The notes beneath the pieces were generated by a model that was not told the DNA's origin, did not search any database, and saw only the letters and a program-made list of their open reading frames with translations. Shown here piece after piece: positions 34 to 21,268 of a DNA stretch of 64,000 nt (positions within the stretch are counted from its first letter, which is position 1; every line of letters begins with the position of its first letter). The position numbers were made by a program, and so were the translations under genes. The stretch is taken from the IMG/VR virus record IMGVR_UViG_3300032315_000774, positions 64,001 to 128,000 of that record; one strand, 5' to 3'. The stretch is from a virus.

Positions 34-107
34 TGTGACAAGCAGGAGTTGAACCTGCGACCTCATGCTTATCAGGCATGCGCTCTGACCACCTGAGCTA
101 CTGTCAC
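34..107 (-). tRNA. tRNA-Ile(GAT)
   Basis: Acceptor GTGACAG/TTGTCAC, anticodon arm CATGC-CT GAT AA-GCATG, T loop TTCAACT; no encoded CCA. Confidence 0.93.
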
Positions 108-115
108 GTGCGAAC

Positions 116-188
116 AGCGTGTGGCGAGGTTCGAACTCGCGACCTACGACTTGGAAGGACGTCGCTCTGCCAACTGAGCTACACACGC
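116..188 (-). tRNA. tRNA-Gly(TCC)
   Basis: GCGTGTG/CACACGC acceptor, loop CT TCC AA, U73 discriminator, TTCGAAC T loop. Confidence 0.93.
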
Positions 189-192
189 GAAG

Positions 193-395
193 CGCCTCTG
201 ACGGGACTTGAACCCGCAAACGACTAGATGAGAGCAACCGTGAAGCCTCTCTCTTCTCTGCACCGCCTTGGAGAATGGCCTTCCCTAAGCTGAGCATGGA
301 GACCCAGTTCGGTGAGCAATCGCAACCGTAGGGCAGTGCAGTTATGTCTCCACCTTCCGTTTTAGGTGAGCCTGTTCCATTTCGGCTTCAGAGGC
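193..395 (-). ncRNA. tRNA-framed RNA (203 nt) with a 133-nt structured insertion between an anticodon-like hairpin and the T arm
   Basis: Perfect acceptor GCCTCTG/CAGAGGC + G73, D arm GCC-GAAATGGAACA-GGC, hairpin CACCT-AAAACGGA-AGGTG, T arm GCGGG-TTCAAGT-CCCGT; spaced like the flanking tRNAs. Confidence 0.75.
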
Positions 396-397
396 GA

Positions 398-464
398 AAG
401 CAGAGGATGGAATCGAACCATCGAGCAACGGCTTATGAGGCCGCGCAGCACCTTGCGCTCTGCT
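398..464 (-). tRNA. tRNA(CAT) (Met or Ile2) with a truncated D arm, 67 nt
   Basis: AGCAGAG/CTCTGCT acceptor, GCGGC-CT CAT AA-GCCGT, GATGG-TTCGATT-CCATC; D region only about 13 nt. Confidence 0.75.
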
Positions 465-473
465 ACGAGCACA

Positions 474-546
474 CGCATGCGACAGGGATCGAACCTGCGA
501 CCCTCGGCTTAGAAGGCCGACGCTCTTCCAGCTGAGCTACACATGC
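474..546 (-). tRNA. tRNA-Arg(TCT)
   Basis: GCATGTG/CGCATGC acceptor, TCGGC-CT TCT AA-GCCGA, A20 and G73. Confidence 0.93.
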
Positions 547-867: not shown

Positions 868-870
868 AGA

Positions 871-1125
871 GCCGGAAAACGCACCGAGGCGTGAGCAAAA
901 CGCTTCGATGCGTTTTCCGGCAGACACGAGAATCCTGTGAACACAACAGAGCTTTCAGCTGTCCACAATGATCCTCATCAACCGCTTCATGAAACGCGAA
1001 GTCTCGCTGTCGCACCACAACAGCGCCCAAGACACCAGTGGTGTCTTCTTGCTCCGTGCAGGAGCATGCTCCTTTGGGAGAGGAGCACGTTCAGAACTAC
1101 AACTATCTCGTTGCAGCCGTCAAGT
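871..1125 (-). ncRNA. Putative structured non-coding RNA inside the tRNA array
   Basis: About 260-nt gap in an array otherwise spaced mostly 2-9 nt; at least five clean hairpins (871-921, 1005-1025, 1029-1047, 1050-1066, 1067-1087); no convincing ORF. Strand inferred from context. Confidence 0.5.
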
Positions 1126-1130
1126 TTGCA

Positions 1131-20376: not shown

Positions 20377-20810
20377 TCCTGGAGAACGGTCTTCGCTCGT
20401 CGGATGCCAGATAGGCCGAGATCGAGTTCGAGGATGTCAGCTTGGAGCTTGTCTCGCCACGCGAGCTGTCGACGCAGACGTGTCTGCAGAGCTTGTAGAG
20501 CTTGCAGTGGTTCTGAGAACGACAGCGCCGTCTGTACGGCTTTCGAGAAGTCGCCCAGCTCTACGCAGCTGCGCGCGACGGACGAGTCGAACGGGACGAG
20601 GTTGCTGAACTGCGCGAGGCCGCCTGCGACTGCCGCCAAGGCAGACTCGGACACCTGAAGCGGGATCAACACGACATCCACGACCGCGAGCTGTGCCGCG
20701 ACCTGTGCGCGTGCGACTTCGATCGCACCTTCGAGTGTTGTCAGCACGCCGACGATCGCCGCCCGAACAGGGGCTGACAGCGCACAGAGTACGATCTGCG
20801 AACAATCCAT
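20364..20810 (-). CDS. Hypothetical helical baseplate-region protein
   Basis: Start MDCSQIV 2 nt after the upstream stop. Confidence 0.65.
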   Translation of the reverse strand: MDCSQIVLCALSAPVRAAIVGVLTTLEGAIEVARAQVAAQLAVVDVVLIPLQVSESALAAVAGGLAQFSNLVPFDSSVARSCVELGDFSKAVQTALSFSEPLQALQALQTRLRRQLAWRDKLQADILELDLGLSGIRRAKTVLQECRT

Positions 20811-20812
20811 GC

Positions 20813-21268
20813 TCAGCTCCAGGGAAGTTGGATTGGCGCACCGAACAACCCGGTGCGCATCCAGGGATCGACAACAGCTGCTATCGTCTGAGCGACGACT
20901 CGCGGATCGACCTGCGGTACGACTAGACCTAGCACGAGCGGACCCGCTGGCGGAAGCGCTGTCGGTGTCGCAGCCGCGAACGCCGCGACACCTGCCACGA
21001 TCGCAGGTTCCAGCGATGGGACAACCCCTGTTCCTACGAAGGCCCCTCGAAACGCGCTCAGAGCCGCTGGCGTCGCAGGGGGTAGGGCCGCCTGGCCCAA
21101 GTAGCGTTCGAAGGCTGTGGCCCAGTTCTGCGCTGCCAGGATGCGTGAGCTGATCGGGTCCACGACCCCATTGATCGACAAGATCGGCCACCCCACGAAG
21201 TCTGGCCGCGAGCTGTCGATGACCGCGAGCACCGCCTCGAACAAGGTCGCAGGGGTCAGCGGCATCAC
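20813..21268 (-). CDS. Hypothetical virion protein following the spike gene
   Basis: GTGA overlap; Ala/Pro-rich. Confidence 0.65.
   Translation of the reverse strand: MMPLTPATLFEAVLAVIDSSRPDFVGWPILSINGVVDPISSRILAAQNWATAFERYLGQAALPPATPAALSAFRGAFVGTGVVPSLEPAIVAGVAAFAAATPTALPPAGPLVLGLVVPQVDPRVVAQTIAAVVDPWMRTGLFGAPIQLPWS

What the first reader, a model, noticed from the sequence alone, without database searches (positions are those of the whole stretch)
193..395. 203-nt tRNA-framed RNA carrying a 133-nt pseudoknotted domain
Seen: it occupies a normal slot of the tRNA array and has a perfect 7-bp acceptor stem, G73, a D arm and a canonical T arm. After an anticodon-like hairpin (351-368; 8-nt loop AAAACGGA, no U33) come 133 nt (218-350) where the variable loop should be. 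The insert has a 10-bp helix (332-341 with 258-267) crossed by a 7-bp helix (346-352 with 297-303), i.e. a pseudoknot, plus smaller hairpins. Known: tmRNA needs G3:U70 and lacks a D stem, and the smallest group I introns in tRNAs are about 200 nt, so neither fits. A20, an ACG in the loop and G73 are arginine identity elements. Inference: a new class of tRNA-mimic RNA (decoy for anticodon nucleases or synthetases, or a scaffold matured by RNase P and 3' processing), or a tRNA with a minimal ribozyme/degenerate intron. Short stretches (GGTGCAGAGA, TCTAGTCG) weakly recall group I R and S elements.
Basis: partly seen in the sequence, partly recalled or inferred. Interest (0 to 1): 0.82.

Follow-up and report, generated by a model that had tools for sequence, protein, structure and literature searches.

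The report
Orphan tRNA-shaped phage RNA with insert
One slot of a large freshwater phage's tRNA gene array holds a 203-base gene with the ends and corner of a tRNA but 133 extra bases in the middle; it almost certainly cannot read codons, a close relative lacks it, and its job is unknown.

Summary
The element is real. It lies on the minus strand (395 to 193). It has a perfect 7-bp acceptor stem, a class-II-type D arm, a canonical T arm and G73. It also has a hairpin with an 8-nt loop lacking U33, then 133 nt where the variable loop belongs.

ARAGORN (tRNA, intron and tmRNA modes) and Rfam (E up to 10) recognise nothing there.

The "pseudoknot" is not supported. A 7-bp helix like helix B occurs in 59% of shuffles and a 10-bp helix like helix A in 9.6%. 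The insert alone folds at z -1.6.

Twelve sequence searches of public collections and this scan's notes found no homologue. A close relative (tRNAs about 98% identical) joins tRNA-Gly directly to tRNA-Met in DNA. The whole slot is therefore strain-variable.

The phage clade does carry a covarying family of 108-153-nt tRNA-framed RNAs with a large arm in the same position. This element is not a member.

Best reading (0.45): a non-decoding, tRNA-scaffolded accessory RNA matured by tRNA-processing enzymes, in the manner of T4 RNAC. Main rival (0.3): a decaying, disrupted tRNA gene.

The parts
193..395 (-). Whole 203-nt tRNA-framed RNA gene
   Evidence: Sequence read. The MFE fold gives the cloverleaf frame. 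The custom frame scan finds it as the only long unannotated tRNA frame in the array.
389..395 (-). Acceptor stem, 5' strand (GCCUCUG)
   Evidence: Pairs 7 of 7 Watson-Crick with 194-200.
370..386 (-). D arm: 3-bp stem GCC/GGC plus G.A; 9-nt loop AAAUGGAAC with GG, A14, A21 (class-II/Ser-like type)
   Evidence: Compared by eye with the phage's own tRNA-Ser and tRNA-Cys D arms.
351..368 (-). Anticodon-like hairpin: stem CACCU/AGGUG, 8-nt loop AAAACGGA, no U33
218..350 (-). 133-nt insert at the variable-region position
   Evidence: MFE -46.4 kcal/mol, z -1.63.
258..341 (-). Helix A (341-332 with 267-258, 10 bp, one G.U), closing a junction with three small hairpins (328-310, 307-290, 285-271)
   Evidence: MFE fold. 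A helix of this size occurs in 9.6% of shuffles.
297..352 (-). Helix B (352-346 with 303-297, 7 Watson-Crick bp). It crosses helix A and competes with the hairpin at 307-290 and with 2 bp of the anticodon-like stem.
   Evidence: Read. It is not in the MFE fold. Helices of this size occur in 59% of shuffles.
226..257 (-). Helix C: 12-bp hairpin with two 1x1 internal loops and a UCAC loop. An 8-nt linker (225-218) follows before the T arm.
   Evidence: MFE fold.
201..217 (-). T arm: GCGGG UUCAAGU CCCGU
   Evidence: The family model R1 matches only this part, at 8.3 bits.
193..200 (-). Acceptor stem 3' strand (CAGAGGC) and discriminator G73. No CCA is encoded.
189..396 (.). Stretch missing as DNA from a close relative. 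Its contig joins 188 to 397 with a single A between.
   Evidence: tables 5, 5c and 8: DNA run X16 at depth 47.8 and RNA run X15 at depth 19.8, both from one sample.

Best explanation
It is a non-decoding, tRNA-scaffolded small RNA gene and an accessory, strain-variable member of the phage's tRNA operon.

Proposed working:
1. It is transcribed with the array.
2. The intact acceptor stem, D-loop/T-loop corner and G73 let RNase P cut its 5' end.
3. The host 3'-trimming and CCA-adding enzymes finish its 3' end, as for its neighbours.
4. The tRNA frame therefore acts as a processing and stability handle.
5. The 133-nt insert projects from the variable-arm position, as the long arm of a class II tRNA does.
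6. With an 8-nt loop lacking U33 it does not read codons.

What the insert binds is unknown. It could be a tRNA-binding host factor (a defence nuclease, a synthetase or a modification enzyme) or something else.

Shown: the frame, the position in the array, the absence of any known-family match and the strain variability. Inferred: transcription, processing, stability, lack of decoding and any binding role.
For: - The frame is complete exactly where processing enzymes read it: 7 of 7 acceptor pairs, a T loop UUCAAGU, G53:C61, G18 G19, A14, A21 and an A15/U48 pair. The departures sit in the decoding parts (8-nt loop, no U33).
- It occupies one array slot with 2-nt and 4-nt spacers.
- The other 27 tRNAs already cover all 20 amino acids, so no decoder is missing.
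- The same phage clade has a genuine family of non-standard tRNA-framed RNAs, 108-153 nt long, with a large arm at the same position. Model R1 gives 29 hits at E < 1e-5 in the 11 loci searched. 90.3% of cells are paired against 60.7% in shuffles, and the covariation score is 0.79 against at most 0.17 when partners are slid. Two copies lie in this genome. The architecture is therefore in use here.
- T4 keeps two small RNAs of unknown role in its tRNA cluster. RNAC carries a T arm. Passages of PMC3014915 and PMC9697503 were read.
Against: - No homologue was found in any collection searched.
- A relative with about 98% identical tRNAs lacks the whole element, so it is dispensable.
- The insert's fold is not better than chance (z -1.63; helices).
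- It is not a member of the clade's own long-arm family.
- There are no expression data for the strain that carries it. The RNA contigs laid come from the relative that lacks it.
- One low-depth contig of run X14 differs at 4 of 149 positions in the insert. The neighbouring protein gene differs at 11 of 624, so there is no sign of extra constraint (table 8).
Confidence: 0.45

Rival explanations
1. It is a disrupted or decaying tRNA gene. A class-II-like (Ser-type) tRNA gene took up 133 nt of unrelated sequence in its variable region and lost a working anticodon loop. It is still cut out of the precursor but has no function of its own and is being lost from the lineage.
For: - It is absent from a close relative.
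- No homologue of the insert exists anywhere searched.
- The insert's folding is at chance level.
- The loop has 8 nt and no U33, and position 8 is A.
- All amino acids are served by other genes.
Against: - Decay should also hit the acceptor stem, T arm and D loop. These are flawless: 7 of 7 pairs and a consensus T loop.
- The insert has no terminal repeats, target duplication or paralogue that would mark a mobile insertion (ends read).
- Related phages maintain comparable long tRNA-framed RNAs under selection.
Confidence: 0.3
2. It is an intron-bearing tRNA. The 133 nt, or part of it, is removed by self-splicing or by a protein to give a working tRNA.
For: - The length is right for a tRNA plus an intervening sequence.
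- A 3-bp helix (348-346 with 224-222) closes the insert in its own fold.
- There is a weak likeness to group I P7 letters (UAGUCG at 226-221). This motif is recalled, not tested.
Against: - ARAGORN with introns of 0-300 nt, at default and lowered thresholds, finds no tRNA.
- No Rfam intron or ribozyme family matches at E up to 10.
- The local hairpin already uses both strands of the 'anticodon stem'. Nothing before the T arm can pair with 368-364 (by eye).
- After any removal the loop would still have 8 nt and no U33.
- 133 nt is below the roughly 200 nt of the smallest known group I introns (recalled).
- The relative lacks the whole gene, not just the insert.
Confidence: 0.08
3. It is a miniature tmRNA-like rescue RNA. 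A tRNA-like domain is charged and enters stalled ribosomes, and the insert supplies a short tag frame.
For: - A frame of 18 codons lies between two in-frame stops (341-288, ending at UAG), just after a purine-rich stretch (read).
- The T arm resembles those of tmRNAs (recalled).
Against: - No G3:U70 (C3:G70 instead), and a D stem is present.
- ARAGORN tmRNA mode at a lowered threshold finds nothing.
- No tmRNA family of Rfam matches at E up to 10.
- The would-be tag does not end in the usual hydrophobic Ala-Ala type of tail.
- No smpB-like gene was found among the ORFs scanned.
Confidence: 0.02
4. It is a decoy for a host tRNA-targeting enzyme. The frame plus a mock anticodon loop soaks up an anticodon nuclease or a synthetase.
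For: - The frame is kept while the loop is non-standard.
- Members of the clade's long-arm family also show anticodon-like loops that often lack U33 (by eye).
- A20, C35/G36-like letters and G73 fit ArgRS identity rules (recalled).
Against: - No defence or counter-defence gene is linked to it.
- It is absent from a close relative that shares the same habitat.
- Nothing was tested.
Confidence: 0.1

Closest known systems
Bacteriophage T4 RNAC (species 1 RNA, 139 nt) and RNAD (119 nt), NC_000866 70908-71171
   Same: - They are small RNA genes inside a phage tRNA cluster, directly abutting tRNA genes.
- RNAC ends in a canonical T arm plus a terminal stem and has no usable anticodon arm.
- Their role is unknown (passages of PMC3014915 and PMC9697503).
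   Different: - There is no sequence similarity. Searches of the phage collection with the element never returned T4.
- This element keeps a perfect 7-bp acceptor stem, a D arm and an anticodon-like hairpin, and puts its extra RNA at the variable-arm position.
- RNAC has only a weak terminal stem in the fold.
- T4's RNAs are known to accumulate. Nothing is known here.
The 108-153-nt long-arm tRNA-framed RNA family of the related megaphages (model R1; not found in Rfam)
   Same: - The order of parts is the same: acceptor, D hairpin, anticodon-like hairpin, optional small hairpin, long arm, 8-12-nt linker, T arm, acceptor.
- It lies in or beside tRNA arrays.
- It has non-standard anticodon loops.
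- Two members lie in this very genome.
   Different: - The family's arm has invariant CUC and ACAAG motifs and a GNRA-capped inner hairpin. This element has none of them.
- R1 matches only the element's T arm, at 8.3 bits against 33-87 bits for members.
- Here the 'optional hairpin' place is taken by an 84-nt junction domain.
Class II tRNAs (Ser, Leu, Tyr; Rfam RF00005)
   Same: - The D arm has a 3-bp stem plus G13.A22.
- The extra RNA emerges between the anticodon stem and the T stem.
- G73 is as in tRNA-Ser (recalled).
- The T arm and acceptor stem are canonical.
   Different: - Natural variable arms have up to about 20 nt (recalled). This one has 133 nt.
- The loop has 8 nt, with no U33 and no U8.
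- The element is not detected by ARAGORN or the Rfam tRNA model.
tmRNA
   Same: A tRNA-like acceptor and T-arm domain enclosing a long structured middle. Pseudoknots are typical of tmRNA.
   Different: - No G3:U70, and a D stem is present.
- 203 nt is shorter than the one-piece tmRNAs I recall (not looked up here).
- No hit in ARAGORN -m or the Rfam tmRNA families.

Membership tests
Canonical tRNA (RF00005) | 7-bp acceptor stem, D loop with G18 G19, T arm with a UUCRANY loop | tested here: met
Canonical tRNA (RF00005) | 7-nt anticodon loop with U33, and a variable region of about 4-21 nt | tested here: not met
   The loop is AAAACGGA (8 nt, no U33). 133 nt lie between the anticodon-like stem and the T stem.
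Canonical tRNA (RF00005) | Recognised by the tRNA covariance model or by ARAGORN | tested here: not met
   No hit, (E up to 10), or (including -ps80, which offers only a poor 88-nt 'Ser(aga)' with acceptor mismatches).
tmRNA | G3:U70 alanine identity pair; no D stem | tested here: not met
   C3:G70 instead, and a 3-bp D stem is present.
tmRNA | Detected by ARAGORN -m or by the Rfam tmRNA models | tested here: not met
Group I intron in a tRNA | Match to the Intron_gpI model (P3-P9 core) | tested here: not met
   No hit at E up to 10 on window 100-500.
Group I intron in a tRNA | The exons re-form a standard anticodon arm once the insert is taken out of the anticodon loop | tested here: not met
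   ARAGORN -i0,300 finds no intron-bearing tRNA. By eye, nothing before the T arm pairs with 368-364.
Group I intron in a tRNA | Self-splicing with guanosine | not testable with these tools
   This needs an in vitro assay.
Y RNA / YrlA | Match to RF02553 at the gathering score, with a Ro-binding stem | tested here: not met
   27.9 bits against 69. The match runs from this element's T arm into the D arm of tRNA-Gly. No TROVE/Ro domain was found among the ORFs scanned. The record is only 61% complete.
T4 RNAC-like tRNA-cluster small RNAs | Lies inside a phage tRNA cluster, ends in a T arm plus terminal stem, and has no decoding arm | tested here: met
T4 RNAC-like tRNA-cluster small RNAs | Sequence or profile homology to T4 rnaC or rnaD | tested here: not met
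   blastn of the element and its parts against 50,697 phage records returns no T4-like hit.
T4 RNAC-like tRNA-cluster small RNAs | Accumulates as a stable processed RNA during infection | not testable with these tools
   The RNA contigs laid come from the relative that lacks the element.
Megaphage long-arm tRNA-framed RNA family (model R1) | Extra arm with the CUC internal loop, GNRA-capped hairpin and YACAAGC linker; full-length R1 match | tested here: not met
   Only the T arm matches, at 8.3 bits, with filters off on window 150-450. No hit at E up to 1 in the wider search.

The most novel reading that the evidence does not exclude
The insert is a functional, pseudoknotted ligand-binding or catalytic domain that the phage delivers on a tRNA chassis. 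It would be a one-off example of a wider, undescribed habit of large phages: mounting exchangeable RNA modules on tRNA frames so that the host's tRNA machinery matures and stabilises them. Here it might serve as a decoy for a tRNA-targeting defence.
Probability: 0.12. Interest if true: 0.8.

Novelty: new variant of a known kind. Interest (0 to 1): 0.45.

Why it matters
Phage tRNA arrays are usually read only as codon-supply or anti-defence tRNA sets. Slots filled by tRNA-shaped RNAs that cannot decode show that arrays also carry other cargo, processed by the same enzymes.

T4's RNAC and RNAD have had no known role for decades. More and differently built examples give comparative material, especially next to a covarying family in the same clade.

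This single copy adds little by itself, because it has no homologues and a close relative does without it. Its main practical value is as a natural with/without pair: two near-identical phages differing by this slot and by the 262-nt spacer. That pair makes a direct fitness or defence test possible.

Tried and rejected
Homologue hunts, all negative for the insert:
- blastn against 50,697 phage records with the element plus flanks, the 5' 50 nt and the 133-nt insert. Only the neighbouring tRNA-Gly or chance hits at E 4-5 came back.
- Exact 20-24-nt patterns in IMG/VR (0 hits). The T-arm-plus-acceptor pattern hit one ordinary tRNA-Asp.
- An anchor in the neighbouring tRNA-Met in JGI metagenomes: 2 unrelated loci.
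- The T-arm-plus-acceptor pattern in GTDB genomes: one tRNA-Val and one non-tRNA chance match.
- 15 records of distant megaphage relatives, found through a VWA protein 35-41% identical: only T-arm matches. Two of these lay outside ARAGORN calls. They proved to be unusual Leu-type tRNAs, not this element.
- Relatives through the major capsid protein: 3 short contigs. Through the neighbouring hydrolase: none.
- The element's own genome: no paralogue.
- This scan's notes, by sequence and by place: nothing.

Other checks:
- RNA runs X15 and X20 gave no information on expression of the element. Their contigs come from the relative without it.
- ARAGORN -ps80 proposes an 88-nt 'tRNA-Ser(aga)' from the 3' half. 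I rejected it because of acceptor mismatches.
- An 18-codon frame behind a purine-rich stretch was considered as a peptide or tag. I rejected it for lack of any support.
- A 20-of-22 match of 280-300 to window 20806-20827 was considered as an antisense target. It is at chance level (E 0.5).
- No sigma-70-like promoter, and no terminator-like site apart from 885-907 (+) in the 262-nt spacer and two inside tRNA genes, was found in 1-1700.
- Two long 'frames' of 306 and 333 nt in relatives were coincidences over coding sequence.
- I did not run a brute-force removal of every possible internal segment to look for a hidden tRNA. ARAGORN's intron mode and reading the strands covered that question.

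Full report
**What is there.** The window is part of a 137-kb IMG/VR phage record, estimated 61% complete. Capsid, portal, terminase, baseplate and family A DNA polymerase genes mark it as a large tailed phage. ARAGORN finds 27 tRNA genes covering all 20 amino acids. Twenty-five of them form one minus-strand array that runs into the start of the window.

Between tRNA-Met (398-464) and tRNA-Gly (116-188) lies the 203-nt element, on the minus strand (395 to 193). It has 2-nt and 4-nt spacers like its neighbours. Read as RNA it has these parts:
- a 7-bp all-Watson-Crick acceptor stem and G73, with no encoded CCA;
- A8 and A9;
- a D arm with a 3-bp stem plus G.A and a loop AAAUGGAAC (A14, G18 G19, A21);
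- a 5-bp hairpin with the 8-nt loop AAAACGGA;
- 133 nt of insert;
- a T arm GCGGG-UUCAAGU-CCCGU.

The unconstrained minimum-energy fold reproduces this cloverleaf frame. The D arm is of the type seen in class II tRNAs, and in this phage's tRNA-Ser and tRNA-Cys (by eye).

In 1000 dinucleotide-preserving shuffles of the 203-mer:
- 59% contain at least one Watson-Crick helix of 7 bp or more (mean 0.87 per shuffle);
- 9.6% contain a helix of 10 bp or more with at most one G.U.

The MFE fold uses helix A, three small hairpins inside it and a 12-bp hairpin (helix C) next to the T arm. It does not use helix B. The whole element folds at z -2.52 (0 of 200 shuffles as good). The insert alone folds at z -1.63 (12 of 200). 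The frame is therefore beyond doubt. The pseudoknot, and the insert's fold as a whole, are not shown to exceed chance.

**Known families.**
- Rfam 15 at gathering scores finds only the ordinary tRNAs.
- On window 100-500 at E up to 10, nothing covers the insert. There is no tRNA, tmRNA, group I or II intron or ribozyme match.
- The one notable line is YrlA at 27.9 bits (gathering score 69). It joins this element's T arm to the D arm of tRNA-Gly. That is what a permuted tRNA-like model does at any tight tRNA junction.
- ARAGORN finds nothing with introns of 0-300 nt, fixed or free position, lowered thresholds, or in tmRNA mode. At 80% threshold it offers a poor 88-nt 'Ser(aga)' with acceptor mismatches.
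- By eye, no strand before the T arm can pair with 368-364, so the insert is not an anticodon-loop intron.

**Homologues.** None was found. The searches were:
- three blastn searches of 50,697 phage records;
- four exact-pattern scans of IMG/VR, of which only the T-arm-plus-acceptor 22-mer hit, in a normal tRNA-Asp;
- one scan of JGI metagenomes anchored in the neighbouring tRNA-Met, giving two unrelated loci;
- one scan of GTDB genomes, giving a tRNA-Val and a chance site;
- a BLAST of 15 megaphage records related through a VWA-domain protein 35-41% identical, giving T-arm matches only;
- a sensitive blastn of the phage's own 137 kb, giving no paralogue.

Closer relatives are not in IMG/VR. 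The capsid protein gave 3 short contigs and the neighbouring hydrolase none.

**A close relative lacks it.** Near-identical DNA occurs in freshwater metagenome runs. I laid contigs of four runs at 80% likeness or more. A relative present in one sample (DNA run X16 and RNA run X15) has the flanking tRNAs at about 98% identity (3 of 188 and 4 of 122 letters differ) and the hydrolase gene at about 89% (164 of 1474). Its contig joins 188 to 397 with a single A between. tRNA-Gly therefore follows tRNA-Met directly, and the whole element, frame included, is absent as DNA.

The same relative also joins 868 to 1127, so it lacks the 262-nt spacer described below. This second joint is also seen in run X20.

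Run X14, from another study, holds the element at low depth. One contig covers 215-363 with 4 differences. The contigs over the hydrolase gene differ at 11 of 624. I could not see which positions differ.

The element is therefore a dispensable, strain-variable cassette. No covariation test is possible with the data at hand. No expression data exist for the carrier strain.

**Context: tRNA-framed RNAs are used in this clade.** I wrote a scan for a T arm followed by a 7-nt strand that pairs perfectly with a strand 100-420 nt upstream, outside ARAGORN calls. In this genome it recovered the element and one other frame, apart from a likely chance frame at G000:C1:76336-76606.

In the distant relatives it recovered many 108-153-nt units, often three to five in tandem and interleaved with normal tRNAs. 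Their layout is:
- a 7-bp acceptor stem;
- a short D hairpin;
- an anticodon-like hairpin whose loops show recognisable anticodons but often lack U33;
- sometimes a small extra hairpin;
- a long arm with invariant CUC, a GNRA-capped inner hairpin and a YACAAGC linker;
- a T arm.

A covariance model of the arm and T arm (R1) finds 29 copies at E < 1e-5 in the 11 loci searched. Two lie in this genome, outside the window. On that alignment, which is fitted to the model, 90.3% of cells pair against 60.7% in shuffles. The covariation score is 0.79 against at most 0.17 with slid partners, and 15 of 16 pairs change on both sides. Rfam does not know this family.

The 203-nt element has the same order of parts, with an 84-nt junction domain in the 'small hairpin' place and helix C in the 'long arm' place. 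It has none of the family's motifs, and R1 matches only its T arm at 8.3 bits. It is an architectural analogue, not a member.

**Classical precedent.** T4 carries RNAC (139 nt) and RNAD (119 nt) at the end of its tRNA cluster. RNAC folds with a canonical T arm near its 3' end. The passages I read say their roles are unknown (PMC3014915, PMC9697503).

Notes of earlier agents in this scan describe several phage 'tRNA-scaffold' RNAs with unrelated inserts and name the same T4 RNAs as closest. I treat these as leads only. Their sequences did not match mine.

**Interpretation.**
- Best reading (0.45): a non-decoding tRNA-scaffolded accessory RNA. The parts read by RNase P, the 3' processing enzymes and the CCA-adding enzyme are perfect, while the decoding parts are spoiled. 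It sits in an operon slot, no decoder is missing, and the clade demonstrably uses the design.
- Main rival (0.3): a disrupted tRNA gene on its way out. This explains the missing homologues, the chance-level fold and the absence from a relative. It explains the flawless frame less well.
- Intron-bearing tRNA: 0.08.
- tmRNA-like RNA: 0.02.
- The decoy idea is a sub-case of the best reading (about 0.1) with no direct support.

No gene for Ro, RtcB, a CCA-adding enzyme, a reverse transcriptase, a synthetase or SmpB was found among the ORFs scanned (34 against PHROGs; 7 and 78 against Pfam). The record is incomplete.

**Verdict.** The structural claim is over-read. 'New class' is not justified for a single unconserved copy. 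It is a new variant of the little-understood kind represented by T4 RNAC. The more valuable by-product is the covarying long-arm family in the related megaphages.

Noticed in passing
L012:20161-21378, L016:14478-15548, L015:18576-19757, L022:14514-15189, L028:222-1019 and others; own genome L045:1469-1587 and about L045:1605-1727 (G000:C1:54468-54726, minus strand; outside the window): A family of 108-153-nt tRNA-framed RNAs in the related megaphages, often 3-5 in tandem between normal tRNAs. They have an acceptor stem, a D hairpin, an anticodon-like hairpin (loops with GUA, CAU, UCC, GAA and others, often without U33), a long extra arm with invariant CUC and ACAAG motifs and a GNRA-capped hairpin, and a T arm. 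Model R1 finds 29 copies at E < 1e-5. Covariation is strong (90.3% paired against 60.7% in shuffles). It is not in Rfam.
   Followed up: partly
window 869-1130 (minus strand): A 262-nt spacer between tRNA-Lys(UUU) and tRNA-Ser(UGA) folds into a row of near-perfect hairpins (MFE -121.9 kcal/mol, z -6.7, 0 of 200 shuffles). The close relative lacks 869-1126 as DNA (join 868 to 1127 in three runs). It has no paralogue in the genome. It may relate to hairpin arrays noted by an earlier agent (e1-6083350).
   Followed up: partly
L045:412-481 (G000:C1:53411-53480, minus strand): A circularly permuted tRNA-like module: T arm, closed acceptor-like hairpin, D arm, flanked by CUGAC/GUCAG. It resembles the tRNA-like part of YrlA Y RNAs (Rfam E 0.41, 20.3 bits, far below gathering). 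A similar spot in a relative (L012:20582-20647) gives weak YrlA and permuted-tmRNA hits. No Ro gene was found.
   Followed up: no
L045:1377-1441 (G000:C1:54376-54440, minus strand): A tRNA-Ile(GAU)-like sequence scoring 47.2 bits with the Rfam tRNA model (positions 4-67) but with a broken acceptor stem. ARAGORN does not call it.
   Followed up: no
window 398-464 (minus strand): The neighbouring tRNA-Met(CAU) is only 67 nt, with a much reduced D arm. It barely passes the Rfam tRNA threshold (31.3 bits against 29).
   Followed up: no
L001:123-351 (G000:C1:62815-63043, minus strand): The three tRNA-Leu genes (CAG, CAA, GAG) are 74-77 nt and lack the long variable arm of bacterial tRNA-Leu. The megaphage relatives have the same type.
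   Followed up: no
window 215-363, run X14: A 240-nt low-depth contig (3.86x) matches 215-363 with 4 differences, then continues for 91 nt that do not match the window beyond 363. That point is the first base of the 8-nt loop. A second X14 contig runs normally across 362-513 (table 8). This is either a variant with a different 5' part or an assembly artefact.
   Followed up: no
L046:156-240 (IMGVR_UViG_3300034072_000973, minus strand): An odd 85-nt tRNA with a 6-bp D stem and a long variable arm. It scores 36.9 bits with the tRNA-Sec model (gathering 47), its loop reads AUUCGAAA, and ARAGORN does not call it.
   Followed up: no
L001:352-544 (G000:C1:63044-63236): A further 193-nt gap in the tRNA array, between tRNA-Leu(GAG) and tRNA-Ala. 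No tRNA frame was found in it by my scan.
   Followed up: no
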